Source: a virus
Length of the DNA stretch: 64,000 nt
IMG/VR virus record: IMGVR_UViG_3300032156_000001
Coordinates: 124,119 to 188,118 of that record
Direction: 5' to 3' (one strand)
Shown: piece by piece, positions 1-37,499 of the stretch
Position numbering within the stretch: position 1 is the stretch's first letter
Layout of the letters: every line of letters begins with the position of its first letter
Notes under the pieces: model-generated
The model's database searches: none
Told to the model about the DNA's origin: nothing
What the model saw: only the letters and a program-made list of their open reading frames with translations
Program-made: the position numbers and the translations under genes

Positions 1-17
1 GAAGGGGAGAAGAAGAA

Positions 18-911
18 ATGAGCCAGGATCTTGCTACCTTGAAGCTCGTCATGGAGACCGTGGCGGAGGTCCAGCGGCGCTGGGAGAAGCGGGGCTTCGT
101 CCCGCTCGATTCCTCCGGCATGATGGTGCAGCCGCAGCAGCAGATGGATCCCTCGATGGGCGGGATGCCCGGCGGGCAGCCGCCGGGAGCTCCTCCGGGG
201 CCCATGCCCCCCGGCGGCGCGCCCCCGCCCGGCGCGGGCGGAATGCCCCCGGGAGCGCCACCGGAAGCCGGTGGAATGCCGCCGGAAGCCGGCGGCGCTG
301 CTCCCGGTGGGGCTCCTCCCGGCCAGCCCGTCATGGTCAGCCTGAACGACCTGATCCAGCTGTTCCAGATGATCGTCCAGCAGCTCGGCGGCGCGGCTGC
401 CCCTGGCGGGGCGGCCGCCCCGGCGCAGGCCCCCGCGGAAGCGCCCAAGAAGGGCAAGGTCGCCGTGGAAGAACAGCTGGCGCAACTGAACGCGAAGCTC
501 GATCAGCTGCTCGGCGCGCTGGGCGGCGGCTCCGCTCCGGCTCCCGCTCCCACCGGGGGCCCTCCTGCTGCCGCCCCCGCCGAGCCGACGCAGGCCGGCC
601 CCGTCGCGCCCGCGGCGCCGATGCAGGTCCAGGCCAGCGCGATCGGCAAGCCGGAAGAGGACCCCGGCGAGCCGCCTTCGCTGTCCGACCCGATCAAGAC
701 GGCCGAGATCCCGACGAGCGGCCCGGCGAACCCCGCGCTTGGCGCGGCGACCCCGGCCGCCGCAGTTCCTCCGCCGGCGCTTCCCCCGCCGGCCTCGATG
801 CAGCCGCCCACCGCTGTCGCCATGCAGCAGCCGGCAGGTGGGCTGGCGGGTGCCAAGGCGCAGTCGATGGCCAAGAGGATAACCGAACTGAGAGGAGCGC
901 CCAAGAAGTGA
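18..911 (+). CDS. Pro/Gly/Ala-rich hypothetical protein, possibly head-associated
   Basis: Purine-rich SD-like sequence upstream (GAAGGGGAGAAG); GC3-biased codons; low-complexity GGAPPG repeats with short amphipathic helices; stop overlaps next start (GTGA). Confidence 0.6.
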   Translation: MSQDLATLKLVMETVAEVQRRWEKRGFVPLDSSGMMVQPQQQMDPSMGGMPGGQPPGAPPGPMPPGGAPPPGAGGMPPGAPPEAGGMPPEAGGAAPGGAPPGQPVMVSLNDLIQLFQMIVQQLGGAAAPGGAAAPAQAPAEAPKKGKVAVEEQLAQLNAKLDQLLGALGGGSAPAPAPTGGPPAAAPAEPTQAGPVAPAAPMQVQASAIGKPEEDPGEPPSLSDPIKTAEIPTSGPANPALGAATPAAAVPPPALPPPASMQPPTAVAMQQPAGGLAGAKAQSMAKRITELRGAPKK

Positions 912-1135
912 AGGTGCGCGTGCAGTCAGGCGACATGAGCTCCGTGGAGTTGGAGGACGCCCGCAGCGCGGTGGTCATAGACGACCACGGGCAGCCGATC
1001 GTGCTGGTGCAGTCGATGGCGCCTGGCCAAGTCCTGGTAGCGCGGGCGTCGGACCCGAACTTCAGGAAGCAGATCGAGGCGCTCGGCATAGGGTTGCGAG
1101 CCGATTTCGAGGTGCGAAAGGGCCATGCGAGCTGA
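908..1135 (+). CDS. Small hypothetical protein
   Basis: GTG start overlapping the previous stop; normal globular composition; overlaps the start of the next gene. Confidence 0.55.
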   Translation: MKVRVQSGDMSSVELEDARSAVVIDDHGQPIVLVQSMAPGQVLVARASDPNFRKQIEALGIGLRADFEVRKGHAS

Positions 1136-4100
1136 CTGGTTCACGGACGCCGTTTACGCCTCCGCGTTGCCGCCGGCTGTCAAGGAAGTGGCAGGGTGGG
1201 GCGGCGCCGGTCGGGCTTTCGGGGGGCGCACGTTCGCCGCCCCGGTCTTCGGGCGGCTCTTCGGACGGACGGCGGCGCCTGCGGCAGAACAGGCCGCTGC
1301 AGGCGCCGCTGCGCGCATCGTGCCGGTAGCAAAGGGGACCGCTGCGGCTGCCGGAACGGCCGCGCGGCCGGGCGCTTTGGCTGCACTCGGGCAACAGTTC
1401 CGGCCGGGCAACGTGGCGTCCCAGTTTTCCCGGCAGCTCGGCTTGGGCGGGTTGGGGACCGCCGCAAGAGGGGAACTGACGTCGCAATTGCGTTCCGGCG
1501 GGCGCATAGGGGAAGAACTGGTAAGGCAGTTCGGCCTTGGCAGCCCCGCGATGGCCGCGCTGGCGCCTGGCATAGCGACACGGCGCATGGCGGCGCAGCT
1601 GGCCCTTCGACCGCCGGTTCCCGCCTTGCAAGGCATCAAGTGGCAGGCGGGTGAAGCGGGTCCGCCCGGCTTGCGTTCCTTGGTGCCGTCGAGAATGCCG
1701 CACGAGCCGGGAGGGACAGTGGAACGCGCCGTCCCGGGGGAACAGTTGGGCGGCGTTCGCATCGGCGGGCGCACGCAGGCGTACGCGGAGTCTCCCTCCG
1801 GGACCGCCACCGTGCTTCCCATCCTGTATCGGCCGCGGCCTGCGCCCGTACCGGCGCCGGCGGCGTCGATGACTACGCACGTCACGCCCGCGCAGGCGGC
1901 ATCAGGCACGCCGGCAGCTGCGAAGACGCCCACGCCAGCGCAGGCCGCTTCGGGGACCATGACAACGTCGAGAAGCCGCGGCATGAGCATGGCACCGGCG
2001 CAAGGCGAGCAGCCGGCCGCGCCCGGCCAGCCGCCGGCAGGGACCCCGTTGACGCAGGAAGCGTTCATGAAAGGCATCGAGTCGATACGGCCGGAGACGG
2101 GCTTCATGGCCGGCGTCAAGGGCATGCTTCCGTGGATGGCGCTAAGCTACGGACCGCAGATGCTCTCGGGTCTTTATCGCGGATTCGTCAAGCCGGACGA
2201 GGAGGAAGGCCGCGCGCAGGAAGCGCAGGGCCCGCGCTATAGCCACGGCGTTTCGCCGTACGCTAGCCCAGTCGCCGAGTCGGAACGGTATCGGTACTGG
2301 CCGAAAGGCGCTGCGGACGTTTCCAAGGCCTTGGAAAAGTCGGCTAAGCGGACGTGGCGCTCGAAGTCCTTCCGCAAGTTCACGCTGCTGCACAGGTTCC
2401 CCGGCAAGACGAGGATGTCGGCCATGCGCAGGAAGACCGTCGCGCGCAGCATGCCGTTCGCTGCCAAGTCGGCCTTCTACTGCGGCTTGGCGAAGCGTTG
2501 CGCCGAGCTCGGCCTTGACAGGGACGACGGCAGGGCCGTCGTGGAAGCCCTGCAGAAGCTGGCCTTCGACGGGGAAAATCCACGGCCGGAAGAGGAGGAA
2601 ATAGACCCGCTGTACACTTATGCCCCGGCGGTTGGCGCCGCCGGCGCGGGTCTTCTTGCTGGCGCCGGGACTGGCGGAGGTCTGCTGGCTTCCGGCGTGG
2701 GCGGCACAATGGTTGGCGGCATGGCGCTCTCTCCATTTGAAAGGTTCGCCGAGGGGGTGCGGAGGAGCCACGCGACTGAAGGTTGGGGAAAGAATTGGCC
2801 GCTGCTGTATTCGACCGGTCAGGGCTTCAAGAACATGGTGACCGGCGAATACGGATCCGATCCCTACGGGTCCGCCCCCGCTTCGGCGGGGAAGGCGGGA
2901 AAGGGCGGCGTCGGCACCGACCCGATGGCACTCGACAAGGCAATAGGCACGCTTAAAGATCCGGAAGTGTATAAGCGGATGATTCGGGAGGAGAAAGAAA
3001 AGTTCGGGCCGATGAACGCGGAAAGATTGAAAGGTTTTCTCAATCTTGCGTATGAGCAAGCGCGAGTAGGCGGCGAGGTGTCCCCCGGCGAGGCCGCCGC
3101 GTCGGCCACCACGGGGATGATCCCCGGCATACGGGGGCTTGACCGCGCCCAAAAGAGCAAGATCCTTCGCAGGCTTCATCCCGAGTTGGACGCCGTGAAA
3201 ACATTGCCGGCATTCCAGACGCCGGGGATCGGCGCGGCGCCCGGGGTAGGAACAGCGCCCGGAGTTAGCAGGCCGTCTGGCGCTGTCGGGCCGCAGGGCA
3301 CAGCCGCTGCGCCCATGCCGGGTTCGCCGGCAGCTGCCCGAAGGCCCATGAGCGGCCAGAAGTCCACGCGCGACCAGGTCAGCCTGATAAGGCAGGAAGC
3401 AGCCACGCGGCAGGCGCCGGCCGCTCCGAAGGCCCCGGCGCCGACCGGCTCGCCCAGCGCCGCTGCGGCTCCGGCATCGACTGGTGCGGCACCGCGACCG
3501 TGGTCCGCCCGCGGCGGATTCGAGGGCGCTGAGGGGACCCGTTACGGCATGGCGCAGTCCGGCGGCGAATACGTGCCGCTCAGCGGCGGCGCCAACACGG
3601 AACCTGGCCAGACATACGGCGGCGCGGGGAGCTTCGACATAGACCGAAGGCGCGGCAGCATCGGACTGCCCGTGGCCGCGCGACAAGCAATGCAATCGTT
3701 CCGTCAACCGCCCAGCGGCGCTTACGCTGCCCCGGAAGGAGCGGTCTACGGCCGCGGGTCCGCAATGGGCGGTCCCGAGCGGTTCTCGTTCGACCCGTCG
3801 GAACGGCTTGTGGGGACTGCGCTGTCAGCGCTGACGGGAGCGGGCGGCGGACAACCCGCCCCGGCGGCCCAGGGCGTGCCGGCGGTTGCCGCGCCGCCGG
3901 TGCCGTCGCGCATGGCGCGGAGGATCGAGGACGTCGGGGGCGGCGATGAACCGTCCGGTGCCTCGGCCAGGCTCCGGGCTGGCAGCGTCGCTACCTCGGT
4001 GCCGCAGGGGGCAGTGGCCCCGTCATTCGGCGACGTGGCGTCGTCCGTCGGCAAGCCGGGATTCAGTAAGCACATCACGGGTCAGGTGCAGCCGACGCCG

Positions 4101-4223
4101 TCCAGGCCGCTGCCGGGCGCGCCACAGCTGCCGCCGCCCAATCCGGGCGGCCTGGAAGCGATAAGAAGGAGCCGGGAGCTGTTGAGCGCCCCGATACCGC
4201 CCACGGGCTACGCGACTCGGTGA
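1125..4223 (+). CDS. Large low-complexity Ala/Gly/Pro-rich protein, candidate internal head/ejection protein
   Basis: 1032-aa ORF filling the gap between coupled neighbours; glycine-rich hydrophobic stretch (AVGAAGAGLLAGAGTGGGLL); KSAFYCGLAKRC motif resembles the N-termini of other head-region ORFs. Confidence 0.6.
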   Translation: MRADWFTDAVYASALPPAVKEVAGWGGAGRAFGGRTFAAPVFGRLFGRTAAPAAEQAAAGAAARIVPVAKGTAAAAGTAARPGALAALGQQFRPGNVASQFSRQLGLGGLGTAARGELTSQLRSGGRIGEELVRQFGLGSPAMAALAPGIATRRMAAQLALRPPVPALQGIKWQAGEAGPPGLRSLVPSRMPHEPGGTVERAVPGEQLGGVRIGGRTQAYAESPSGTATVLPILYRPRPAPVPAPAASMTTHVTPAQAASGTPAAAKTPTPAQAASGTMTTSRSRGMSMAPAQGEQPAAPGQPPAGTPLTQEAFMKGIESIRPETGFMAGVKGMLPWMALSYGPQMLSGLYRGFVKPDEEEGRAQEAQGPRYSHGVSPYASPVAESERYRYWPKGAADVSKALEKSAKRTWRSKSFRKFTLLHRFPGKTRMSAMRRKTVARSMPFAAKSAFYCGLAKRCAELGLDRDDGRAVVEALQKLAFDGENPRPEEEEIDPLYTYAPAVGAAGAGLLAGAGTGGGLLASGVGGTMVGGMALSPFERFAEGVRRSHATEGWGKNWPLLYSTGQGFKNMVTGEYGSDPYGSAPASAGKAGKGGVGTDPMALDKAIGTLKDPEVYKRMIREEKEKFGPMNAERLKGFLNLAYEQARVGGEVSPGEAAASATTGMIPGIRGLDRAQKSKILRRLHPELDAVKTLPAFQTPGIGAAPGVGTAPGVSRPSGAVGPQGTAAAPMPGSPAAARRPMSGQKSTRDQVSLIRQEAATRQAPAAPKAPAPTGSPSAAAAPASTGAAPRPWSARGGFEGAEGTRYGMAQSGGEYVPLSGGANTEPGQTYGGAGSFDIDRRRGSIGLPVAARQAMQSFRQPPSGAYAAPEGAVYGRGSAMGGPERFSFDPSERLVGTALSALTGAGGGQPAPAAQGVPAVAAPPVPSRMARRIEDVGGGDEPSGASARLRAGSVATSVPQGAVAPSFGDVASSVGKPGFSKHITGQVQPTPSRPLPGAPQLPPPNPGGLEAIRRSRELLSAPIPPTGYATR
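2320..2337. promoter_or_regulatory. 18-bp perfect palindrome TTTCCAAGGCCTTGGAAA, copy 1 (intragenic)
   Basis: Exact self-complementary sequence, identical to copies at 23667, 36767 and 57414. Regulatory role is inferred. Confidence 0.6.
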
Positions 4224-4227
4224 CTGA

Positions 4228-6072
4228 ATGCTCACGACGGTCGGACAGCTTCTGGTCAACGAGGAGCTCCCCCCGGGGCTGCGCGACCATTCGCGCGTCC
4301 TCGACCAGGCCGGCGTGGCCAAGCTGTTCGGCGAGATAGAGAAGGCCGACAAGGGCAAGTTCGCCGACATCAACAGGCGGCTGCACGACATCGGCCAGCT
4401 GGTGTCCACCAGGCAGGGCCGCGAGACGAGCCTGTCGCTGGACGCCCTGCGCCCTTCCAAGGGCGTCGCCGACGAGCGCGCCAAGCTGGACCGCGAGGTG
4501 AAACTGATCCTGGCCGGCCCGGGCGACACGGCGGAGAAGCACAGGAAGATCGTCGAGGCCATCGCCGGCAAGGCCGACAGGATCACCGAGCTGAACTACC
4601 AGGAAGGCCTGAAGGACCGCAACCCGTTCGCGCTGCAAATCCTGTCGGGCAGCCGCGGCAACAAGGTACAGTTCAGGACGCTGCGCGCGGGCGACCTGTT
4701 GGTAACCGATCACAGGGATGAGCCCGTGCCGGTGCCAATGCTGTCGTCCTACGCTGAGGGGCTCGACCCGGTGCAGTATTGGGCGGGAGCGTATGGCGCC
4801 CGCCGAAGCGAGATTTTGAAAAAGTTCTCCACCCCGAAGGCCGGCTACCTCGGCAAGCAGCTCGCCATGGCGGCGCACAGGCTCGTCGTGACGGAGAAGG
4901 ACTGCGGCACTTCCACCGGCGTGCCGGCGACGGCCGACGATCCCGACAACGAGGGTGCCGTCCTGGCAACCGACGCGGCCGGCATCCGGGCCGGGACGGT
5001 GCTGACGCCGGACATCATGCGGAAGCTGGGGGACAAGAAGATCCTCGTCAGGTCGGCGCTGACCTGCCAGGCGGAGCGCGGCCTGTGCGGCAAGTGCGCT
5101 GGCGTACGCGAGACAGGCGCGCTGCCGTCGATCGGCTCGCATATCGGCATCGCGGCGGCGCACGCGCTTTCAGAGCCGTTGTCACAGGGGTCTCTGGGCG
5201 CGAAACATTTGGGCGGGACCGTCTCCTCCGGCCAGAGATCGAAGGACGACGCGCTCGACGTGGTCAACAGGCTGGTCCAAGTGCCGGAGGCGTTCCCCGG
5301 CGCGGCGGCGGTCGCTACCAACGACGGCCGCGTGGAGCGCGTCGAGGATGCGCCGCAGGGCGGCACGACGGTCGTCATAGGCGGCAAGGAGCACTGGGCG
5401 GCGCCGGGCCAGAAGATCATGGTGAAGAAGAACGACGAAGTCGAAGCTGGCGACGTCATCAGCGACGGCATGCCTAATCCCGCCGACATCGTGAAGCACA
5501 AGGGCATCGGCGAGGGCAGGCGCTACTTCACGGACCTGTTCAGGAAGACGCTGGCGCAGCACGGATTCAAGCAGAACAGGCGGAACGTGGAGCTGGTGGC
5601 CCGCGGCCTGATCAACCACGTGCGCATCACGGGGCTGCACGGGCCGAACCACACCGTCATGGACGACCTGGTGGAGTTCGACCCGCTCATGCGCGGCTAC
5701 GAGCCCAGGGAGGGCAGCGTTTCCGTCACGCCGAAGGAAGCCAGGGGTTTCTTTCTGGAAAGGCCCGTGCTACATTACTCGGTGGGCACGCGGATCACGC
5801 CGCGGATGGCGGCGGAGCTGCACGGGAACGGCGTCAAGAGCGTCACGGCGCACCGTGAGCCGCCGCCGTTCGAGCCGGAGATGGTGCGGGCGGTCGAAAC
5901 GATGGCGCACGCGGACGACTGGATGCTGCGGCTGGGAGGCCTGTACGGCATCCAGCGCAGCTTCTTGAAGTCCGTCCACCGCGGCGGCACCTCCGATCCG
6001 ACGGGGACGTCCTACATCCCGGCGCTGGCGGAGGGCACCGGCCTGCGGGGGTTGGAAGACGAGGAGGATTAG
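4228..6072 (+). CDS. rpoC: DNA-directed RNA polymerase beta-prime subunit, C-terminal half (split subunit)
   Basis: Colinear RpoC motifs: TTVGQLL, GSRGNKVQ (cf. GARGS), bridge helix YGARR...KAGYLGKQL, VVTEKDCG, Zn site VRSALTC...LCGKC, trigger loop EPLSQGSLGAKH, GDVISDG, terminal EGTG. Lacks the N-terminal half with the NADFDGD catalytic motif. Confidence 0.92.
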   Translation: MLTTVGQLLVNEELPPGLRDHSRVLDQAGVAKLFGEIEKADKGKFADINRRLHDIGQLVSTRQGRETSLSLDALRPSKGVADERAKLDREVKLILAGPGDTAEKHRKIVEAIAGKADRITELNYQEGLKDRNPFALQILSGSRGNKVQFRTLRAGDLLVTDHRDEPVPVPMLSSYAEGLDPVQYWAGAYGARRSEILKKFSTPKAGYLGKQLAMAAHRLVVTEKDCGTSTGVPATADDPDNEGAVLATDAAGIRAGTVLTPDIMRKLGDKKILVRSALTCQAERGLCGKCAGVRETGALPSIGSHIGIAAAHALSEPLSQGSLGAKHLGGTVSSGQRSKDDALDVVNRLVQVPEAFPGAAAVATNDGRVERVEDAPQGGTTVVIGGKEHWAAPGQKIMVKKNDEVEAGDVISDGMPNPADIVKHKGIGEGRRYFTDLFRKTLAQHGFKQNRRNVELVARGLINHVRITGLHGPNHTVMDDLVEFDPLMRGYEPREGSVSVTPKEARGFFLERPVLHYSVGTRITPRMAAELHGNGVKSVTAHREPPPFEPEMVRAVETMAHADDWMLRLGGLYGIQRSFLKSVHRGGTSDPTGTSYIPALAEGTGLRGLEDEED

Positions 6073-6074
6073 TA

Positions 6075-6710
6075 ATGCGTTCCGAACGGGCGTTCGCGTA
6101 CCGGCTTGGCCGCAAGATCGGCGAGTTGGCGAAGGAAGCGGCGGGGCCGGGCCTGCCTTCCAGCGCCACGGCCCGGCAAAGGGCGGCTTCCGCCGGTGGC
6201 GGCGGCCTGCTCGGCGCCGTCGGCGGCGCGGGCATGGGCCTGGCCGGCCTGTTCAGCCCCCGTGCGGAGAAGCGCATCACGGAGTGGGGCGGCCAAGGCA
6301 GGACCGGTCGGATAGGACAGGCGATGGCGGCCCGCCGCCTCGGCAAGTACATGCTCGGCGTGCCGGCCGCCGCGATGGTCCTGCCGGAACTGTACACGCA
6401 CGCGTTCGGCTCGCAGGGCCTCATTCATAAGCTGTTGGGTCAGGCCACCACCGATCCGCGGCTGGCGGTGCCGGATCCCTATGGCGGCATCGACATGTCG
6501 CGGATGGGCGGATTCGGCCCCAGCTACATGCAGGCCTGGAACGCCTACGCCAAGGCGCAGGCGGAGCGCAGGAAGCAGATGTGGGAGCTCGGCCAGGCGG
6601 ACCGCGTCGCGGCCGGCCTGCCGCCCATCCCGTACGAGGCCGGCTACGCCGGGCTCGGGCCCTCGGCCGGCGGCATGGGCTACGCGCCGTCGGCGTCGTA
6701 CTGGCGGTAG
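6075..6710 (+). CDS. Glycine-zipper-containing hypothetical protein (candidate internal/ejection protein)
   Basis: Coupled to the upstream stop (TAGTAATG); GGGLLGAVGGAGMGLAGLF hydrophobic GxxxG repeats; KEAA motif. Confidence 0.6.
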   Translation: MRSERAFAYRLGRKIGELAKEAAGPGLPSSATARQRAASAGGGGLLGAVGGAGMGLAGLFSPRAEKRITEWGGQGRTGRIGQAMAARRLGKYMLGVPAAAMVLPELYTHAFGSQGLIHKLLGQATTDPRLAVPDPYGGIDMSRMGGFGPSYMQAWNAYAKAQAERRKQMWELGQADRVAAGLPPIPYEAGYAGLGPSAGGMGYAPSASYWR

Positions 6711-6747
6711 GGCTGTCGGCCGTTTCACGTTTGCGAGGAGCTGAGCC

Positions 6748-9261
6748 ATGCCTGTGCCGCAGTCGACGGAGACGAACTTCGAGCGGGCGTTCTCCGACCT
6801 CGCCTTCGCGCGCCTGCGCGACAAGGCGCCCGCCCTGCTCGACCATCTCGTCGGCTTCCAGCTGATCGACAAGAACGACGAGGACACGCACGCCGTCGGC
6901 GTGTTCGGCTTCAAGCTCGGCCGGGAGTGGATCTTCGCCCCCGTGTTCTTCATCAACGGCGAGCTGAAGGGCCACGAGCTCCTGTACCTCAAGGACCGCG
7001 ACGCGTTCGTGCCGATGACGGAGGCCTGGGTCAACTACCTGCTCAACAGGAAGCCGCGGATCCTCGGCGAGGCCGAGCAGATCCCCAGGGACCAGATCGG
7101 GCTCAGGCAGCCCGACTTCAACATCTTCACCCGCTCCCCGCTCACCGGCGCCAAGTACGCCTCAGCGCGGCTCACCATCAACGAGGTCATCAGGCGGGCG
7201 AAGCCGGAGTTCGCCGCGTTCATCGACTCGGCGTTCCGCGTCGGGCCGAAGCACGCGAAGTATGCGTCGGTTGACAAGACCACCAGCCTGCCGATCGCGC
7301 TGCGCATCCTGGGCAAGCAGGCGCAGCGGAACCTCGAGATGACCATGCGGGCCGACCCGGCCTTCGCCGACGCGGTCTGCAAGTTCTACGACTGGCAGGA
7401 GCTCACCGGGGCCAAGGAAGCCAAGACGAAGCTGACCCGCGAGGAAGCCCGGTACATGGCGTCCGCCGCGGCCAACAAGTGCAAGGACTGCGACCACCAC
7501 GACGCCCCCAAGTGCGCCATAGTGGAAGGCGAGGTGGCCGGCAGCGGCGGCTGCGCGCACTTCAAGATGAACACGGTCCGCAACAGGATCGAGCCGGTCT
7601 CGGACAACCTGGCCCTGCCGCTCGCGGGCGCGAAGTCCGCCGTGGCGCTGGACCAGGCCGTGCAGAAGATGCGCGGCAAGAAGAAGAGCACGCTGCCGCG
7701 GCAGGTCGTGGTCATCCGCGACGACGACAACTCCAGCACGCTGTACCAGCTAACGGCGCAGGAGAAGGAGCAGCTGGCCCAGCACAAGTACGTCGTCCAC
7801 AGGGTCGTGGAGGACCCGCGCAAGGGCGAGACGGGCACCAAGGTGTTCCGCTCGCAACTGCAGCTGACCCTTCAGGTCCCCACGAAGACGGGCTTCTACG
7901 ACATCATGATGGCCGACGGCAGCGCGCGGAAGCTGCTCGTCCTGTGCGACCAGTTGCTGGTCGGCTGGAACGCCAAGAAGGACCCGCCGTCCGTCACCGT
8001 CATAGACACGGAGAAGAAGCAGTTCGGCGTCTACTCGCCGCACGAGATCCTGACCTCCAAGTGGTACGGCGACGACGAGCTGAAGGACTGGGCGAACAAG
8101 CTGCCCGACGCCGGCGAGCTGACGCCAGGCGCCTGCGCGATCCTCATCTCGCCCGCCGGCTCGGCCACCAACGTCTTCGAGGTCAACCGCAAGGACACGA
8201 CCGCCGACGGCTTGGCCACCCTGTCCGTGAGCAGCTACTGGGACGCCTCCAAGGACTCGATGCTCAGCGACAAGCGCACGTTCCTGTCGAAGAGCCGCGA
8301 ATACGCGTCCGACGACGTGGAGTCGATCACCCTCAGCGGCAAGGAAGGCGACAAGCCGGTGGTGCTGCACCGCAGCGCGTTCGTCCCCAAGGAGCTGAAG
8401 GCGTTCGTGCTTCACCGCAGGTCGCAAGCCCGACACGAGGCCCCGGCGACGCCCGACTCGTACGGGCCGTCCAGCATGGGTCCCGGCTCCCTGTCCAACA
8501 CGCTGCTGAAGGCGGCGCTGGACAAGGAGATCCACAAGGTCCAGGTCACCACCGACGGCATCGGCTACGTGGCCATCGAGGACGGCAAGCAGGGCCCGTA
8601 CCTCGGCAAGATCGCCATGCTGAAGCACCTCATCGAGGACCACGGCGCCGGCGAGCAGGATGCGCTCGCCATGCTGAAGGCGGCGTCGGGGGCCGACAGG
8701 GCCCCGGTCTTCCTGGTCAAGCACGGCGACTACTACGACGGCGCGTACTCCGCGATGCCGATGACGCCGTACTTCCCCGACCAGATGGTCGGCCAGGAGG
8801 ACGGGATCAAGGCGCCGGTGACGTACGACCAGACCGACGTGCTGCCGCTGACGAACATCGACAACTCCACGTCCAGGTCGGCGTACATGGACGACAGGTA
8901 CGTCGACGACCAGGCCAAGCGGTTCGCCACCTACGCCGCCAATCAGGGGCAAAAGGAGGTCCTGGACACGGCGGTCATCGGCGGGCTGGTCAAGACGATG
9001 GACTCCGACGCGCTGACCGACAGCTACATGAGCGACCTGCTGCTGGCGCTGGACCGGCTCGGCCGCATCCTGTTCATGTACTACTGGCACAACGACAAGT
9101 TCCGCGAGCGGTACGGCCAGCAGGACATGATCGAGCTCGAGGACAGCCTGCGGAACGTCTTCAAGCAGCTGGGCGAGCTGACGCTGTTCCTGAAGCAGAA
9201 GACGATAGAGCCGGAGGCGCCGGGCTCCGAGATCGAGCTGCCCAACGCCGTTCCCTCGTAG
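6748..9261 (+). CDS. Large head-region protein with an internal HiPIP-like 4-Cys motif
   Basis: GAGGAG SD; strong GC3 bias over 837 codons; CKDC-x7-C-x6-V-x3-GGC-x2-F motif at 7480-7563. Confidence 0.7.
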   Translation: MPVPQSTETNFERAFSDLAFARLRDKAPALLDHLVGFQLIDKNDEDTHAVGVFGFKLGREWIFAPVFFINGELKGHELLYLKDRDAFVPMTEAWVNYLLNRKPRILGEAEQIPRDQIGLRQPDFNIFTRSPLTGAKYASARLTINEVIRRAKPEFAAFIDSAFRVGPKHAKYASVDKTTSLPIALRILGKQAQRNLEMTMRADPAFADAVCKFYDWQELTGAKEAKTKLTREEARYMASAAANKCKDCDHHDAPKCAIVEGEVAGSGGCAHFKMNTVRNRIEPVSDNLALPLAGAKSAVALDQAVQKMRGKKKSTLPRQVVVIRDDDNSSTLYQLTAQEKEQLAQHKYVVHRVVEDPRKGETGTKVFRSQLQLTLQVPTKTGFYDIMMADGSARKLLVLCDQLLVGWNAKKDPPSVTVIDTEKKQFGVYSPHEILTSKWYGDDELKDWANKLPDAGELTPGACAILISPAGSATNVFEVNRKDTTADGLATLSVSSYWDASKDSMLSDKRTFLSKSREYASDDVESITLSGKEGDKPVVLHRSAFVPKELKAFVLHRRSQARHEAPATPDSYGPSSMGPGSLSNTLLKAALDKEIHKVQVTTDGIGYVAIEDGKQGPYLGKIAMLKHLIEDHGAGEQDALAMLKAASGADRAPVFLVKHGDYYDGAYSAMPMTPYFPDQMVGQEDGIKAPVTYDQTDVLPLTNIDNSTSRSAYMDDRYVDDQAKRFATYAANQGQKEVLDTAVIGGLVKTMDSDALTDSYMSDLLLALDRLGRILFMYYWHNDKFRERYGQQDMIELEDSLRNVFKQLGELTLFLKQKTIEPEAPGSEIELPNAVPS

Positions 9262-9269
9262 GGGCGACA

Positions 9270-10094
9270 ATGGCGTCCGAGCCCGACACCCTCAACGCGC
9301 CGGACTGGCGCTGGTCGATCGCCGGTGAGATGGTGCGCCGCAGCGATCCCCCCGACCGCGGTTCCGACAGGCTGCTGATCCAGGCATACCGCTTCCTGGT
9401 GCGGTTCAAGGATCCGGCGGCGACGGCGCGGTTGCGCCTGCGGAAGGACTACCCGGAGATATACGCCGCGCACGCGCTGTACCGCGACCCCCTCAGCGAG
9501 CGCTGGCTCATCGAGGCCGGCCTGCTGTCCGACGTGCCGTTCCAGGAGCTCGCCGAGTACGTGGCGCAGACGGCCAGGACCGTGGAGACGTACGGGGCCC
9601 TCTTCTTCGACGTGAAGGAGAAGATGAAGTCGCGCGGCTGGGTCATGACGCGCATCCTGATGCCGCCGCGGATGGCCAGCCAGCCGACGGACCTGGACTT
9701 CCTGCTGAAGGCGGTAGCCTACTTCGCCGGCTGGGGCGTCCTGCGCGAGTACCTGGAGGCCAAGCGGCTGAGCCCCGGCGCGCGCACGTACCTGACGGAG
9801 GACTACCGCGACCAGGTGTTGCGCCGCAGCTGGGAGGCGGCCCACAGGGTCGAGATCAACAAGTTCAACGTCGTCGAGGTCATGGAGATGCAGCTAAAGG
9901 CCATGGCGCTGGACCTGCAGCGCGGGGCCGTTTCGGAGCCCGAATTGGTCATCCGGTTGAACGCCGTGTTCGGCGGCTGTAGAATAGGCGTCGCGGCCCC
10001 GGTGCCGATGATAGACGAGCTTGGGCCGAAGGCGCTGGCGCTCCCGGTGCCCATCCGGGACGAGGAGAAAGCGGGAGATGGAAAAGCTCAGTGA
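9270..10094 (+). CDS. Hypothetical helical protein
   Basis: ATG at 9270 (the in-frame 3-prime part of track ORF 7479..10094) has typical codon bias; the upstream part of that ORF is a shadow of 6748..9261. Confidence 0.65.
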   Translation: MASEPDTLNAPDWRWSIAGEMVRRSDPPDRGSDRLLIQAYRFLVRFKDPAATARLRLRKDYPEIYAAHALYRDPLSERWLIEAGLLSDVPFQELAEYVAQTARTVETYGALFFDVKEKMKSRGWVMTRILMPPRMASQPTDLDFLLKAVAYFAGWGVLREYLEAKRLSPGARTYLTEDYRDQVLRRSWEAAHRVEINKFNVVEVMEMQLKAMALDLQRGAVSEPELVIRLNAVFGGCRIGVAAPVPMIDELGPKALALPVPIRDEEKAGDGKAQ

Positions 10095-12293: not shown

Positions 12294-13057
12294 TGATCAA
12301 GCCGGCGGCGGTGCTGCCATCGTTCCTGTCGCAGACGCTGGGCCACGCCGCGCTGGGCGGGCTGGCCGCCGGCGCGTTGAGCAGCCACGACCGGCTGGTC
12401 GCGGTGCTGCGCGGCGCGCTGACGGGCGCCGGCGGCGGGTTCCTGGGATCGGCGGCGGGGCTGGTCCCACTGGGCGCGGGCAGGCTCGCGACCGGCACCG
12501 TGGCGGAGCACATACCGTACATGCAGGCCGGCGGCCTGATAGGAAGCGTGGCCGGCGGCGCGTACGGCCGGTCGCGCAAGCCCGAGGAGGCCGCGGAGGA
12601 GAAGAAGGCCGGGATCGCTCCCGTGGCATTGGGTTTGGGCCTGGGCGGCATCCTTGGCGGGACGGCCGGTTACAGGGCGACCGGGCAGGATACCTGGAAC
12701 CGTTTGACGCCGAAGCAGAAACTGGCGGTGATCCTGCGCAGCAGCCTTCTCGGTGCCGCCGGCGCCGGCGCCTTGGGAGTCGCCGGCGCCGGCGCCGGCG
12801 GCCGAATAGGAACTTACAGGCTGCGCGGCGCGCTCGACACGCGCGTGAAGGAGCTGGAGAAGGCGCTCGACACGGGCGGGCCGCTGCCGCCCAAGCCCGA
12901 TGTAAGGGCGTTGGCCGGCCTGGTGCGCACCCCCGCGTTGATGGGAATGGCCGCCGGCGGGCTAACTGGAGGCGTCCTGGGCGGTCTGTTCGGCAGGGCG
13001 GGCGGCAAGGCGCGCGGCGGCAGGCGGCGCGCGATGGAGCAGGACGAAGATGTATAA
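12293..13057 (+). CDS. Multi-glycine-zipper protein, predicted membrane-interacting ejection protein
   Basis: ATG in the TAATG overlap; several GxxxGxxxG hydrophobic helices in two similar halves separated by EEKKAG. Confidence 0.65.
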   Translation: MIKPAAVLPSFLSQTLGHAALGGLAAGALSSHDRLVAVLRGALTGAGGGFLGSAAGLVPLGAGRLATGTVAEHIPYMQAGGLIGSVAGGAYGRSRKPEEAAEEKKAGIAPVALGLGLGGILGGTAGYRATGQDTWNRLTPKQKLAVILRSSLLGAAGAGALGVAGAGAGGRIGTYRLRGALDTRVKELEKALDTGGPLPPKPDVRALAGLVRTPALMGMAAGGLTGGVLGGLFGRAGGKARGGRRRAMEQDEDV

Positions 13058-14528
13058 GGTCATCCCGCACGGCTCGTTCGATTTCGGCATGCCGGCCGCC
13101 CGGCTGGTGGACCTGCACCGCGGCGGCGTGGACTCGGCGTGGCTGGAGAAGCGCGCGGCCGTCCTGACGCGGGAGATCGCCGAGCTGAGGCCGCGGCCGG
13201 GGCACAGCTACGTCCACCTGATCTCGCTGGGCTCCATGGAGCACTACGGCTGCAACAGGAACGGCGACGCGTTCCCGTACAAGAGCGCTACGTACGAGCT
13301 GCCCATGCCGAAGGGCGGTCAGAAGCTCATCAAGCTCGCCGACGGCCTGTCCAGGATGCACGCGACCTTCATGCAGGGGCACGTCTTCAAGCATCACCAG
13401 AACGACAACCCCGAGAAGTCGATCGGCAAGATCGCCGCCGAGGCGTACAACCCCGAGATGCACCGCGGCGAGCTGATCATCGAGGTGCCGCACGGGAAGG
13501 AGTGGGACGACGACCTGCAGAAACTGGCGAGCGGCCAGGACATCGCCTTCTCGATGAGTATGCGCGAGCCGCACGACACGTGCAGCGCATGCGGCAACCA
13601 GGCGACGTCGCGGGCGAGGTACTGCGACCACCTGCGCGACCACATGACGGAGATACTCAAGAGCGGCCACCAAGTGTTCGCCATCAACGACGTAGGCTCT
13701 TTTTTCGATATCAGCAAGGTGATGCGCCCCGCCGACAGGATCGCGTTCTCGCTGAGGAAGGTTGCCGAGCTGCTCGCGGTGGGCGGGGCCGCCCTTGCCG
13801 AGGAGCTCGGGATGATCGACGCCGCGGGCTCGCCCCGCAGCGTCCCAGCCGCAATGTCGCGGAAGGTCGCGGCGGCCGAAAAGCTGTCCGCGATGGAGAA
13901 GCGGGTCGGTGCCGCCGCGCGCGGAGAGGACAACACGGAGCTGTTGCAGCAGGCGCGCGGTTGCCCGTCGCGGGAGCTCAACGACGACGAGATTTCCGGG
14001 CTGAAGAGCGCGCGGCTCGGCCCGGTGCTCGGCGCGTTGGCCGACGCGAAGATCTGCCTCTCGGTCCGCGATTTCGCGCGGCTGGTGCAGGGGCCGAGTC
14101 GCGGCCCCTCGGACGGCGACATCGGCTTGGTCGAGCGGATGCTGCCGGACCTGCATTCCCGCCTGTCCGACGGGGATGCGCAAAGCTGCGCCGCTGACGG
14201 GTCGTACGACTCCGACGAGGGGTCGGCCGGTCCTCTCGGCGCCTCGATTCCGCGGCACGTGCGCGACTTGATCGGCCGGCTGATGGACGACCATTCGTTG
14301 GCCGAGGGCCCGGTCCGGCGGAGGATCACGATCGTCACGATCCGCGGCCTGAAGCCGGAGACGGCCCAGCCGGAAAAGTCGAAGGTTGCCGTGGACTCGA
14401 CTTCGGCATATACTCTCGCTCGGGAGTATGCGAAGTACCGGCTCGCCTTTCTGGCCAAGCAGGGAGCCGACGCTGAGCGATGTGCCTTGTTGACAGTCCT
14501 GCGCGGCTGCGTTAGATTCGTGCCGTGA
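13050..14528 (+). CDS. Prohead (capsid maturation) serine protease, HK97/assemblin-like, with a Cys/His Zn-ribbon insertion
   Basis: Motif order RNGDAF...FKHHQN (His)...GELII...FSMS (Ser)...DTCSACGN...YCDHL...FFDISKVMRPAD; lies upstream of scaffold and capsid genes. Confidence 0.8.
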   Translation: MYKVIPHGSFDFGMPAARLVDLHRGGVDSAWLEKRAAVLTREIAELRPRPGHSYVHLISLGSMEHYGCNRNGDAFPYKSATYELPMPKGGQKLIKLADGLSRMHATFMQGHVFKHHQNDNPEKSIGKIAAEAYNPEMHRGELIIEVPHGKEWDDDLQKLASGQDIAFSMSMREPHDTCSACGNQATSRARYCDHLRDHMTEILKSGHQVFAINDVGSFFDISKVMRPADRIAFSLRKVAELLAVGGAALAEELGMIDAAGSPRSVPAAMSRKVAAAEKLSAMEKRVGAAARGEDNTELLQQARGCPSRELNDDEISGLKSARLGPVLGALADAKICLSVRDFARLVQGPSRGPSDGDIGLVERMLPDLHSRLSDGDAQSCAADGSYDSDEGSAGPLGASIPRHVRDLIGRLMDDHSLAEGPVRRRITIVTIRGLKPETAQPEKSKVAVDSTSAYTLAREYAKYRLAFLAKQGADAERCALLTVLRGCVRFVP

Positions 14529-17614: not shown

Positions 17615-17683
17615 GAAACTGGCGCCGGTCCAGCCACCAAGGGCGGCCCGGCTTGGGAAGGCTTGGAAGAGAGGGTCACTGAG

Positions 17684-18613
17684 ATGGAACCGACCACGGA
17701 ACTGCTGAATCGGGCCGTCATAGACCGGCTCACCTCGGACGATCCCGGGATGGTGAAGGAAGCCGTCACGGCGATCAACGAGTACACGCGGGTGAAGCTG
17801 CGCGAAGACGGCTTCCTGAGGCGGGTGCTCCCGCCCCTGACGATCACGGAGTTCGACCGGCAGGTCGACACCGACAAGCCGGTCAAGGTCGTGGACAAGG
17901 AACCGGACTCCCCGGCCGCGATCAGCGTGCCGTTCGGCTCCTCGCCCATGAACCGGTACATCCGCGGGCCCCGCTACCGCGTGATGTTCGACCGGATCCT
18001 CACGCCGAAGTTCACCAAGGACGTCGTCGAGCTGATGACCTGGCACATGGACATCCGCCAGATCCTCAGCGACAACGCCATCAAGGACATGATGGCCGAG
18101 GAGGACAACAAGTTCCTCCTGGCGGTCAACACCGTCCTGGTGGCCCCCGGCAGCGTCCTGCCCGACACGGGCATCGCGCAGTGGGTCACGCTCAGCGGCG
18201 GAGTGACCAGGGACACGCTGGCTGCGGCCATGCAGGTCCTCCCGGGCAGCTTCCAGCGCTTGGTCGCGGCCACGGTGCTGGTCAACCAGATCACCATCTG
18301 GGAGTTCGTGAAGTGGGGCCGCGACGAGGTCGGCGGCGACGACGCGCAGGCCACGCTGCGCCAGGGCTTCCAGGAACGCGAGCTCATGGGGGTCCGCTTC
18401 ATCGTCACGATCAAGTGGGACCTGGTCCCGACGAACACGATCTTCCTGTTCGCCGAGCCGAAGTTCCTCGGCAAGCTGTACATGATCGAGGACGTCACGA
18501 TGTACGTGAACAAGCGGGCGTTCATGCTCGAGTTCTTCGCGTACGAGTGCCTCGGCGGGGCGATCGGGAACGTGGCCGCGGTCGGCCGCGTGGACTTCAC
18601 GACCGAGACGTAG
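17684..18613 (+). CDS. Major capsid protein (HK97 fold)
   Basis: About 309 aa with very strong codon bias. HK97-type layout: EDGFLRRVLPP, PKFTKDVVEL, DIRQIL...IKDMMAEEDNKFL backbone helix, FFAYECLGGAIGN P-domain end. Followed by a hairpin. Confidence 0.85.
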   Translation: MEPTTELLNRAVIDRLTSDDPGMVKEAVTAINEYTRVKLREDGFLRRVLPPLTITEFDRQVDTDKPVKVVDKEPDSPAAISVPFGSSPMNRYIRGPRYRVMFDRILTPKFTKDVVELMTWHMDIRQILSDNAIKDMMAEEDNKFLLAVNTVLVAPGSVLPDTGIAQWVTLSGGVTRDTLAAAMQVLPGSFQRLVAATVLVNQITIWEFVKWGRDEVGGDDAQATLRQGFQERELMGVRFIVTIKWDLVPTNTIFLFAEPKFLGKLYMIEDVTMYVNKRAFMLEFFAYECLGGAIGNVAAVGRVDFTTET

Positions 18614-36797: not shown

Positions 36798-37499
36798 ATG
36801 GAGCAGGCTTACGAGAAGTGGCGGAAGGCCCCGACGCAGGAGAACATGGCCGCGCTGCTGGACGCGGCCGACCCCGTCGTCGATTCGGCGCTGTCCGCGT
36901 ACGCGCGCGGGGACAAGGCGCTCAAGTCGCGCGCCAGGATCCTCGCCGCCGGCGCGTTCAAGACCTACGACCCGCAGAAGGGCACCAAGCTGCGGACCCA
37001 CGTCATGACGCAGCTGCAGCCCCTGTCGCGGGCGCACAGGGAGCGGACGGCGGTCGTCAGGACGCCGGAGCGGGTGGCTGCCGACTCGTACCGGCTGAGC
37101 CAGGCGCAGCAGGAGTTCGCGGACAGGCACGGCCGGGAGCCCAGCACCGCCGAGCTGGCCGACGCCTCCAACCTGTCGCTGAAGCGGATAGCGCACGTGC
37201 GCGGCTTCAAGGGCCCGCTGGCCGAGTCGTCGCTGACCGAGATGGAGGAGGACTCGCCGGCCACGTTCTACCCCGGCGTCCACAAGGAGGACCCGAGGAA
37301 GATCTGGCAGGAGTACGTCTACCACGACCTGGACCCGATCAACCAACAGATCCTGGAACGGAAGGCGGGCATGCATGGCAAGCCGGCGCTGTCGAACAAC
37401 GAGATCGCGGCCAAGCTGGGCGTGACGCCAGGCGCAGTGTCGCAGCGCAGCGCGGCCATAGCGGCCAAGCTGGCACAGGGCGAGGGCGTGGAGCTATAG
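36798..37499 (+). CDS. Sigma70-family (FliA/SigB-like) RNA polymerase sigma factor
   Basis: Region 2 YDPQKGTKLRTH..VVRTP; region 3 GREPSTAELADASNLSLKRI; region 4 HTH LSNNEIAAKLGVTPGAVSQ. No region 1. Confidence 0.82.
   Translation: MEQAYEKWRKAPTQENMAALLDAADPVVDSALSAYARGDKALKSRARILAAGAFKTYDPQKGTKLRTHVMTQLQPLSRAHRERTAVVRTPERVAADSYRLSQAQQEFADRHGREPSTAELADASNLSLKRIAHVRGFKGPLAESSLTEMEEDSPATFYPGVHKEDPRKIWQEYVYHDLDPINQQILERKAGMHGKPALSNNEIAAKLGVTPGAVSQRSAAIAAKLAQGEGVEL

What the first reader, a model, noticed from the sequence alone, without database searches (positions are those of the whole stretch)
4228..6072. Phage-encoded, bacterial-like RNA polymerase beta-prime half-subunit embedded among head genes
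Seen: the motifs are colinear with bacterial RpoC from about the TTVGR motif to the C-terminal GTG. They include the bridge helix, all four Zn cysteines and the trigger-loop Gln and His; the trigger-loop Arg is replaced and there is no SI3 insertion. The catalytic NADFDGD half is absent. Established: cyanobacteria and plastids split rpoC near this region, and some Caudoviricetes encode deeply branching multisubunit RNAPs. Inference: an independent phage split, with beta and N-terminal beta-prime encoded outside the window. Its position among head-protein genes raises the possibility of a virion-packaged enzyme.
Basis: partly seen in the sequence, partly recalled or inferred. Interest (0 to 1): 0.8.

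Follow-up and report, generated by a model that had tools for sequence, protein, structure and literature searches.

The report
Phage RNA polymerase beta-prime C-terminal subunit
This gene really is the back half of a bacterial-type RNA polymerase beta-prime subunit made by a ~188-kb phage; its front half sits 4 kb upstream, fused to beta, and the same layout occurs in Salmonella phage Arash and hundreds of uncultured phages, so it is a new member of a barely studied kind.

Summary
Observation confirmed. Window 4228-6072 (+) encodes a 614-aa protein equivalent to E. coli beta' 570-~1342. It has the rim helices, bridge helix, four Zn cysteines, a trigger loop with Gln and His but Gly for Arg933, and no SI3. 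Only the C-terminal 'GTG' is doubtful, because relatives do not keep it.

The partner exists. A 2124-aa gene ending at window position 21 fuses beta, which carries an intein and a 2H-phosphoesterase insert, to beta' N with GADFDGD. The genome has one polymerase gene set, no alpha or omega homologue, and three sigma-70-like genes, one at window 36798.

The split lies 10-17 residues upstream of the cyanobacterial rpoC1/rpoC2 split. All relatives found share it: over 230 metagenomic proteins at 42-70% identity, Salmonella phage Arash gp216 and Vibrio phages D181, D148 and D69. On a small tree this group is separate from four bacterial beta'.

Virion packaging is plausible but unproven. The genes head the structural module, and the Arash beta, beta' and sigma were found in particle preparations, but so were many metabolic enzymes.

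The scan had already noted this architecture on the partner gene (e1-5801531, e1-5801542). Verdict: new member of a known, little-characterised kind; moderate interest.

The parts
1..21 (+). Last codons of the 2124-aa beta::beta'N fusion gene (genome 117765-124139). It is the partner subunit with both double-psi beta-barrels and GADFDGD.
   Evidence: Rpb2_6 gives 9.5e-48 and Rpb1_2 gives 5.6e-24. The match to rpoC_TIGR covers positions 155-532. The protein ends at about E. coli beta' 558.
18..911 (+). 297-aa Pro/Ala/Gly-rich ORF lying between the two beta' halves.
   Evidence: GC3 is highest in this frame; no Pfam family. Only a weak match to the relative L010.
908..1135 (+). Conserved 75-aa ORF lying between the two beta' halves.
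   Evidence: tblastn finds 41% identity to the 76-aa and 86-aa genes at the same position in L012 and L010.
1125..4223 (+). 1032-aa low-complexity ORF immediately upstream of beta'C. Its stop lies 4 nt before the beta'C start codon. It shares a short motif, C-x-E-x-G-(F/L)-D-x-x-D, with the genes at the same position in relatives.
   Evidence: No Pfam or PHROG family. The Atlas holds a mostly disordered model of the L012 counterpart.
4228..6072 (+). beta' C-terminal subunit (614 aa), equivalent to E. coli beta' 570-~1342.
4768..4875 (+). Bridge helix (residues about 181-216).
   Evidence: Alignment to Salmonella, Staphylococcus and other beta'. Modelled as helix H181-216. Y189, G190, A191, R192, K199, G206, K210 and Q211 are conserved across the clade.
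4903..5097 (+). Zn-binding segment with C226, C280, C287 and C290, corresponding to E. coli C814, C888, C895 and C898.
   Evidence: All four cysteines are invariant in the 54-sequence clade alignment.
5143..5280 (+). Trigger loop (residues about 306-351). Q320 and H327 are kept, Gly stands for Arg933, Lys stands for Phe935, and there is no SI3 insertion.
   Evidence: Modelled as helices H306-328 and H340-351.
6075..6710 (+). 211-aa Gly-rich ORF with a hydrophobic Gly-zipper-like segment. It starts 3 nt after the beta'C stop, behind a GAGGAGG ribosome-binding site.
   Evidence: The relative L012 has a similar 233-aa gene at the same position.
6748..9261 (+). 837-aa homologue of the Arash gp218 'structural protein'. 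It is the first gene of the head module downstream.
   Evidence: tblastn. Arash annotation.
13050..14528 (+). Homologue of Arash gp222, with weak similarity to a head maturation protease.
17663..18613 (+). Major capsid protein candidate.
   Evidence: phrog_2522 (major head protein), E 1e-5.
36798..37499 (+). Sigma-70-family factor (233 aa), orthologue of Arash gp10.
   Evidence: phrog_351 gives 7.7e-16. Sigma70_r3 gives 3.5e-9 and r4 gives 0.0024. tblastn to Arash gp10 gives 2e-16.

Best explanation
The ORF encodes the C-terminal module of the beta' subunit of the phage's own bacterial-type multisubunit RNA polymerase. It supplies the secondary-channel rim helices, bridge helix, Zn site, a minimal trigger loop without SI3, the SBHM/jaw region and the C-terminal clamp segment.

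It is inactive on its own. It must assemble with the 2124-aa beta::beta'N fusion encoded 4.2 kb upstream, which carries both double-psi barrels and the Mg-binding GADFDGD. Together they would form a two-polypeptide catalytic core with no alpha or omega homologue. Promoter choice is probably given by the phage's own sigma-70-family factors. There are three such genes, and the one at window 36798 is orthologous to Arash gp10.

The polymerase genes open the late structural operon. They are tightly packed, have no terminator between them and are probably translationally coupled to their neighbours. The enzyme is most likely made late, packaged into the particle and delivered with the DNA to start early transcription independently of the host polymerase.

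Shown here: homology, fold, conserved catalytic-support residues, the partner gene, conservation across the clade and synteny. Inferred: assembly of the two chains, activity, use of sigma, and packaging with injection. The confidence given (0.6) is for the whole statement including packaging; identity as a functional beta' C-terminal subunit of a phage RNAP alone is above 0.95.
For: - Homology and fold.
- Functional residues are invariant or nearly so in 54 relatives at 47-71% identity: the Zn cysteines, Q320, H327 and bridge-helix residues.
- Partner subunit.
- There is a single RNAP gene set and no alpha or omega.
- There are three sigma-like genes.
- The gene order beta::beta'N, then 3-5 small genes, then beta'C, then head genes is conserved in L009, L010, L012, Arash and D181.
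- Inteins are inserted at the bridge helix and trigger loop in relatives, as is typical of essential conserved sites.
- No promoter-like or convincing terminator-like site lies between the genes, and the gene junctions are tight.
- In Arash, gp206, gp216 and sigma gp10 were found in particle preparations at 2.3, 2.0 and 2.0 spectra per residue, against 1.5 for portal and 0.87 for RNR alpha (my arithmetic on the table in PMC10585845).
- Relatives fuse NUDIX+SNF2 or kinase-like cargo domains to the C-terminus of beta'C. This fits an injected protein.
Against: - There are no proteomic or transcription data for this phage or any close relative.
- Arash is only 29% identical. Its mass spectrometry listed 116 of 272 proteins as 'in particles', including RNR, NAMPT and RNA ligases, and its methods do not mention CsCl. 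Carry-over of abundant late proteins cannot be excluded, as its authors themselves say.
- Trigger-loop Arg933 is Gly and Met932 is Leu, so catalytic details may differ from the bacterial enzyme.
- Assembly without alpha or omega is assumed, not shown.
- The sigma factors could act on the host polymerase instead.
- No co-fold of the subunits could be run.
Confidence: 0.6

Rival explanations
1. The enzyme is a non-virion polymerase. It is made in the infected cell and used only for middle or late transcription. Host RNAP, redirected by phage sigma factors, transcribes the early genes. On this view its place beside the head genes is only operon organisation.
For: - The Arash particle preparation clearly contained non-structural enzymes.
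- The phage has three sigma genes in different genome regions, which could serve host RNAP.
- There is only one RNAP set, unlike the two sets of phiKZ and AR9.
Against: - The Arash RNAP subunits and sigma have higher spectra per residue than portal and far more unique peptides than RNR (128, 40 and 24 against 11).
- The placement in the structural module is conserved across relatives as distant as 29% identity.
- Cargo-like domains are fused to or inserted in the subunits in relatives.
Confidence: 0.3
2. The ORF is a recently captured or decaying fragment of a host rpoC gene with no function of its own.
For: It is only half a beta'. The best structural matches are bacterial beta'.
Against: - It is 21-30% identical to any bacterial beta' and scores 172 bits against the 963.5-bit equivalog cut-off.
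- More than 230 phage-clade relatives conserve the functional residues.
- Its codon usage is native to the genome.
- The matching partner gene is present.
- It is separate from the bacterial sequences on the tree.
Confidence: 0.02
3. The split is inherited from a common ancestor with the other split phage msRNAPs (RP13, YerA41 or phiKZ type) rather than being independent to the Arash-like lineage.
For: Several phage lineages split beta' in the same broad zone after the catalytic barrel, at E. coli about 515-675. The tree does not resolve how the Arash-like group, the other phages and the bacteria are related.
Against: The exact break points differ by tens of residues. Some of the other phage lineages are unsplit. 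Beta is fused to beta'N only in the Arash-like group.
Confidence: 0.15

Closest known systems
Salmonella phage Arash gp216 (beta'C) with gp206 (beta::beta'N) and sigma gp10 (OQ632216; PMC10585845); also Vibrio phages D181, D148 and D69
   Same: - A protein of about 606-614 aa that starts at the TTVG-equivalent position.
- The partner is a beta-beta'N fusion upstream on the same strand.
- Homologues of gp218, gp222, gp234 and gp236 and the sigma follow in the same order.
- It lies on the same side of a tree branch with SH-aLRT 99.
   Different: - Only 29% identical.
- In the window's phage the portal is not adjacent.
- Beta carries an intein and a 2H insert.
- The genes between the two halves are co-oriented low-complexity ORFs, not small genes on the opposite strand.
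- GC content is 68%.
- There are no proteomic data.
Cyanobacterial and plastid RpoC2 (beta''), the C-terminal product of the rpoC1/rpoC2 split
   Same: It is a separately encoded C-terminal module of beta', broken in the same linker after the catalytic barrel. The AF2 model aligns with Synechococcus and Synechocystis RpoC2 at Z about 26.5-26.9.
   Different: - The break is 10-17 residues further upstream, so TTVG lies on the C-piece here.
- There is no SI3, which is very large in cyanobacteria.
- The N-piece is fused to beta.
- It scores 83 bits against the 467-bit TIGR02388 cut-off.
Bacterial RpoC (beta'), for example E. coli, T. thermophilus or B. subtilis
   Same: The fold and order of elements match from E. 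coli residue 570 to about 1342. The bridge helix, the four Zn cysteines and trigger-loop Gln and His are kept.
   Different: - It is only half a subunit.
- Identity is 21-30%.
- Arg933 is Gly, Met932 is Leu and Phe935 is Lys.
- No alpha or omega partner is encoded.
phiKZ/AR9-type jumbo-phage multisubunit RNAPs (virion and non-virion sets)
   Same: They are phage-encoded beta/beta'-like enzymes with beta' split after the catalytic barrel. One set is packaged in the virion (reviews PMC7598289, PMC7824862, PMC13282480).
   Different: - Here there is one set, not two.
- Beta is fused rather than split.
- Canonical sigma-70-family genes are present, whereas those reviews state that the known jumbo-phage RNAPs have no sigma homologue.
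- The sequence matches bacterial beta' more strongly than the RP13, YerA41 or Va2 subunits (E 5e-31 against 2e-13 to 7e-11).
Helicobacter/Wolbachia-type rpoB-rpoC fusions (NCBIfam PRK09603, PRK14844)
   Same: Beta is covalently joined to beta'. The best NCBIfam hit of the partner gene is PRK09603 at 337.6 bits.
   Different: There the whole beta' is fused. Here only the N-terminal part is fused and the C-half, this ORF, is a separate gene. The scores are far below the cut-offs.

Membership tests
Bacterial RpoC (TIGR02386 equivalog) | Whole-protein score above the curated cut-off, as a full-length beta' in one chain | tested here: not met
   172.1 bits against a cut-off of 963.5. Only model positions 549-1060 of 1147 are covered.
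Bacterial RpoC (TIGR02386 equivalog) | Bridge helix, four Zn cysteines and trigger-loop Gln and His, in bacterial order | tested here: met
Bacterial RpoC (TIGR02386 equivalog) | Catalytic NADFDGD in the same polypeptide | tested here: not met
   GADFDGD lies in the separate 2124-aa gene.
Cyanobacterial/plastid RpoC2 (TIGR02388) | Score above the cut-off and the same break point | tested here: not met
   83.4 bits against a cut-off of 467.4. RpoC2 residue 1 corresponds to window residues about 11-18.
Cyanobacterial/plastid RpoC2 (TIGR02388) | Large SI3 insertion in the trigger loop | tested here: not met
   Only 14 window residues lie opposite E. coli 940-1135.
Arash-like phage RNAP beta'C (gp216 type) | A protein of about 610 aa beginning at the TTVG-equivalent and grouping with Arash gp216 and D181 | tested here: met
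   The tree branch has SH-aLRT 99.
Arash-like phage RNAP beta'C (gp216 type) | Partner beta::beta'N fusion gene upstream on the same strand, within the structural module | tested here: met
Arash-like phage RNAP beta'C (gp216 type) | Sigma-70-family gene orthologous to gp10 among the tail and baseplate genes | tested here: met
Arash-like phage RNAP beta'C (gp216 type) | Protein present in virions | not testable with these tools
   There is only the Arash mass spectrometry, on a preparation that also held many enzymes.
phiKZ/AR9-type jumbo-phage msRNAP | Two paralogous sets (virion and non-virion) of split beta and beta' genes | tested here: not met
   The 188-kb record has a single locus for each of Rpb2_6, Rpb1_2 and Rpb1_5. 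Beta is fused, not split. Caveat: Pfam may miss very divergent copies, and the record is about 90% complete.
phiKZ/AR9-type jumbo-phage msRNAP | No sigma-70-family factor encoded | tested here: not met
   Three sigma-like genes were found.

The most novel reading that the evidence does not exclude
This lineage may carry a virion-delivered RNA polymerase that depends on canonical sigma-70 factors and is built from only two chains (beta::beta'N plus beta'C) without alpha or omega. Its subunits may also serve as a chassis for injected cargo. Three observations point that way. A 2H phosphoesterase is inserted in beta. NUDIX+SNF2 or kinase-like domains are fused to the C-terminus of beta'C in a sister subclade. 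Disordered, Gly-zipper proteins are translationally coupled on either side of beta'C. That would be a third, more bacterial-like type of phage multisubunit RNAP, not covered by the 2020-2026 reviews that were read.
Probability: 0.4. Interest if true: 0.7.

Novelty: new member of a known kind. Interest (0 to 1): 0.45.

Why it matters
Reviews of phage multisubunit RNA polymerases (PMC7598289, PMC7824862, PMC13282480) describe enzymes that lack sigma, alpha and omega homologues and come in two split sets.

The Arash-like lineage, to which this gene belongs, differs in four ways. It has one set. Beta is fused to the front of beta'. The back of beta' is a separate gene. It also has bona fide sigma-70-family factors.

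The lineage is widespread in metagenomes, with hundreds of proteins on contigs of about 100-235 kb across 51-68% GC. Its only cultured, published representative has been described only in outline.

It offers a natural minimal bacterial-type core for asking how RNAP assembles without alpha and omega, how a split at E. coli 558|570 is tolerated, and whether a sigma-dependent holoenzyme can be packaged and injected. For this window alone the gain is annotation, not a new principle.

Tried and rejected
- Peptidase_M23 (E 5e-4) and biotin-lipoyl hits at residues 357-412 were read as the sandwich-barrel hybrid motif normal in beta', not as a peptidase. Both are below the cut-offs, and the region aligns with bacterial beta'.
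- I looked for an unsplit form or one fused at the N-terminus. None of the 120 listed 'longer' relatives has anything upstream of the TTVG start. The extra length is a C-terminal extension or inteins.
- I tested whether those C-terminal extensions are homologous to the window's low-complexity ORFs (18-911, 1125-4223, 6075-6710). BLAST found no hit with or without SEG filtering, and the short shared motif is absent from them.
- An Atlas search for the counterpart of the 1032-aa ORF gave a disordered model and no credible hit.
- PHROG and Pfam scans of about 35 window ORFs gave mostly no family.
- A 40-aa N-terminal peptide searched against PDB gave nothing useful.
- A mixed MAFFT alignment of fragments misplaced the fragment ends, so I used the profile, BLAST and structural ranges instead.
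- The tree has only four bacterial sequences from two phyla and a quick LG+G4 search. It shows separation from those sequences, not the deep position of the lineage.
- Co-folding with the partner and sigma could not be run, because only single-chain prediction is available.
Full report
**What is there**

The window is the last 64 kb (124119-188118) of a 188,118-bp virus record that CheckV rates about 90% complete. At 4228-6072 (+) there is a 614-aa ORF. Its codon-position GC (0.67/0.46/0.91) is typical of the genome's genes. An in-frame TGA at 4225-4227 fixes the start at MLTTVGQ, and relatives start at the same point.

Several independent searches identify the protein as the C-terminal part of bacterial-type beta':
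- phmmer against PDB gives E 5e-36, with only beta' chains listed.
- A profile of 54 relatives gives E 4.6e-65.
- Pfam Rpb1_5 gives 4e-18.
- NCBIfam rpoC_TIGR matches positions 549-1060 of 1147, at 172 bits against a cut-off of 963.5.

An AlphaFold2 model built on the clade alignment has mean pLDDT 82. Its 50 best Foldseek matches are all bacterial beta'. VIA-align places model residues 1-588 on E. coli beta' 570-1342 at Z about 26 with 522-534 residues aligned.

**Motifs**

I aligned the protein with Salmonella beta', which was picked up from a bacterial contig in the 'phages' collection. The map in E. coli numbering is as follows:
- TTVGQ corresponds to 572-576.
- The bridge helix is at window residues about 181-216.
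- C226, C280, C287 and C290 correspond to C814, C888, C895 and C898.
- In the trigger loop, Q320 = Q929, L323 = M932, G324 = R933, K326 = F935 and H327 = H936.
- Fourteen window residues lie opposite E. coli 940-1135, so there is no SI3.

The four cysteines and H327 are invariant in 54 relatives at 47-71% identity. Q320 and much of the bridge helix are at least 90% conserved.

The exception is the C-terminal 'GTG'. The conserved motif there is SFIPALAxGxEFG, and it shares only (F/L)IPA with the bacterial IPAGTG. The tail from residue 584 to 614 is modelled with low confidence.

**The partner**

A 2124-aa gene lies at genome 117765-124139 and ends at window position 21. It contains:
- Rpb2_6 (9.5e-48), Rpb1_1 and Rpb1_2 (5.6e-24);
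- a 2H-SAK phosphoesterase insert;
- a segment of about 352 aa (residues about 702-1053) that starts with Cys, holds a LADG motif, ends in GN|S and is absent from the relative L010, so it is an intein;
- the catalytic loop, written GADFDGD.

Its beta' part matches rpoC_TIGR positions 155-532 and E. coli 179-549, and it ends at about E. coli 558. Nothing of beta' is missing except about 12 residues of a variable loop.

Each of Rpb2_6, Rpb1_2 and Rpb1_5 occurs at only one locus in the record. No alpha (PF01000, PF01193) or omega (PF01192) homologue was found, although the same searches hit all 14 control genomes.

Three sigma-70-like genes exist:
- genome 50489-51280, with regions 2 and 4;
- genome 87808-88545, with region 4;
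- window 36798-37499, with regions 3 and 4.

**The split compared with other splits**

The phage break is at E. coli about 558|570. Cyanobacterial RpoC2 begins at window residues about 11-18 by both profile and structure. The cyanobacterial break is therefore 10-17 residues downstream, and TTVG lies on the other piece there.

Other phage polymerases differ from this arrangement:
- RP13 breaks at about 515|600.
- YerA41 breaks at about 592|675.
- The C-piece of IME392 starts at about 537.
- Va2, Carin-5 and RHph_TM21B have unsplit beta'.

The zone after the catalytic barrel is evidently permissive and has been broken at several different points.

**Relatives**

More than 110 metagenomic proteins of 600-625 aa are 47-70% identical to this one, on contigs of up to 211 kb.

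A further 120 'longer' proteins (1076-2022 aa) are 42-54% identical. All of them carry the beta'C module at their N-terminus. Their extra length comes from two sources:
- inteins at about residue 200 (bridge helix) and about 323 (trigger loop);
- a C-terminal low-complexity, Gly-rich hydrophobic extension that sometimes holds NUDIX+SNF2 or acylphosphatase+AAA_18+DUF5661 domains.

This long-form subclade is monophyletic. At least P0124 in it has lost all four Zn cysteines.

Three long contigs show the same gene order of beta::beta'N, then 3-5 small genes, then beta'C, then head genes. They are L010 (NCBI, 204 kb), L012 (JGI, 192 kb) and L009 (IMG/VR, 103 kb), with GC of 51-59%.

Among cultured phages the closest are Salmonella phage Arash and Vibrio phages D181, D148 and D69, at 29-30% identity. 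In Arash, gp206 (1525 aa) corresponds to the beta::beta'N fusion and gp216 (606 aa) to beta'C. Arash and D181 have syntenic homologues of terminase, portal, gp217 helicase, gp218, gp222, gp234, gp236 and sigma gp10.

On a 27-row tree (quick search, LG+G4), the window, its relatives, Arash and D181 lie on one side of a branch with SH-aLRT 99. The four bacterial beta' (two Gammaproteobacteria and two Firmicutes) form their own group with support 100. Together with the 172-bit rpoC score, this excludes a recent host capture. The deep position of the lineage is not resolved.

**Surroundings**

Between the two beta' halves lie three co-oriented ORFs:
- a 297-aa Pro/Ala/Gly-rich ORF at 18-911;
- a conserved 75-aa ORF at 908-1135;
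- a 1032-aa low-complexity ORF at 1125-4223, whose GC3 is highest in that frame though weaker than usual.

The genes at the same position as the 1032-aa ORF in L012 and L010 share only a short C-x-E-x-G-(F/L)-D-x-x-D motif with it.

The stop of the 1032-aa ORF lies 4 nt before the beta'C start. In L012 the corresponding genes overlap by one base. A 211-aa Gly-zipper-like ORF starts 3 nt after the beta'C stop, behind a GAGGAGG site.

No sigma-70-like promoter or convincing terminator lies within 1-9900.

Downstream come the gp218 homologue (6748), a protease-like gp222 homologue (13050), the major capsid protein candidate (17663, phrog_2522) and, later, a baseplate wedge gene (39340). 'Embedded among head genes' is therefore a fair description.

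**How it probably works**

The two chains should form the catalytic core. Beta::beta'N brings both barrels and the Mg site. This ORF brings the bridge helix, the trigger loop, the secondary channel and the rest of the clamp. The covalent beta-beta'N link may stand in for the assembly role of alpha and omega; this is an inference.

Sigma factors probably give promoter specificity. The one in the structural module is the orthologue of the Arash sigma.

For packaging, the only experimental evidence is the Arash particle proteome. There gp206 had the most spectra (3516), followed among others by gp216 (1210) and sigma gp10 (467). Per residue, these come to 2.3, 2.0 and 2.0, compared with 4.3 for the major capsid protein, 1.5 for portal and 0.87 for RNR alpha (my arithmetic).

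That same list holds 116 of 272 proteins, including RNR, NAMPT and RNA ligases. The paper does not mention CsCl, and its authors allow for carry-over. I therefore put packaging at about 0.6, and the identity and role as a polymerase subunit at above 0.95.

**Novelty**

Reviews from 2020, 2021 and 2026 describe phage multisubunit RNAPs as lacking sigma, alpha and omega and as occurring in two split sets. They describe sigma-encoding phages as lacking an RNAP. The Arash-like layout is not discussed in those I read. The Arash paper annotates the genes without analysing the architecture, and no other paper in the library cites its accession.

The kind is nevertheless already in GenBank and in one publication. 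The same scan also noted the architecture on the partner gene (e1-5801531, e1-5801542). This finding is therefore a new member of a known, little-studied kind.

Noticed in passing
genome 117765-124139 (L004:7765-14139); ends at window position 21: The beta::beta'N gene carries a segment of about 352 aa (residues about 702-1053) that looks like an intein. It starts with Cys, holds a LADG motif and ends in GN|S. It is inserted after GEGGMS and is absent from the relative L010. L012 has Intein_splicing and LAGLIDADG_3 domains at the same gene. A 2H-SAK phosphoesterase insert lies at residues 434-531.
   Followed up: partly
relatives P0124-P0243: A monophyletic sister subclade has beta'C fused at its C-terminus to extensions of 500-1400 aa. 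These are low-complexity and Gly-rich hydrophobic, and some hold NUDIX+SNF2 helicase or acylphosphatase+AAA_18+DUF5661 domains. At least P0124 in this subclade has lost all four Zn cysteines.
   Followed up: partly
relatives P0031, P0070, P0101, P0150, P0184 and others: Inteins (LAGLIDADG_3, Hom_end_hint, Hint) are inserted in beta'C at two recurrent sites: about residue 200 in the bridge helix and about residue 323 in the trigger loop.
   Followed up: partly
genome 50489-51280 and 87808-88545 (L025:1327-2118, L027:1108-1845): There are two further sigma-70-like genes besides the one at window 36798. One has regions 2 and 4 and the other has region 4. This suggests a sigma cascade.
   Followed up: partly
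window 1125-4223, with L012:8337-10001 and L010:8796-9992: The gene just upstream of beta'C is a fast-evolving, mostly disordered protein of 398-1032 aa. Only a short C-x-E-x-G-(F/L)-D-x-x-D motif is conserved. Its stop abuts or overlaps the beta'C start, which suggests translational coupling.
   Followed up: partly
window 6075-6710 and L012:11882-12583: The gene just downstream of beta'C is a Gly-rich protein with a hydrophobic Gly-zipper-like segment and a Gly/Met-rich tail. It resembles the end of the C-terminal extensions of the long-form beta'C proteins in composition, but not detectably in sequence.
   Followed up: partly
L023 (Cobetia phage Carin-5), L024 (Rhizobium phage RHph_TM21B), L015 (Vibrio phage Va2): Other cultured phages encode an unsplit beta' of 1083-1192 aa. 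In Carin-5 a sigma factor gene and a beta gene are adjacent to it. Phage RNAPs accompanied by sigma are therefore not limited to the Arash-like group.
   Followed up: no
'phages' collection records OR844998, OR846602, OR847295, CAKLQH020000005 and AFYI01000006: Several records labelled as phages carry ordinary full-length bacterial rpoB and rpoC genes (Staphylococcus, Enterococcus, Listeria, Acinetobacter, Salmonella). They are host contigs or contamination in that collection.
   Followed up: partly
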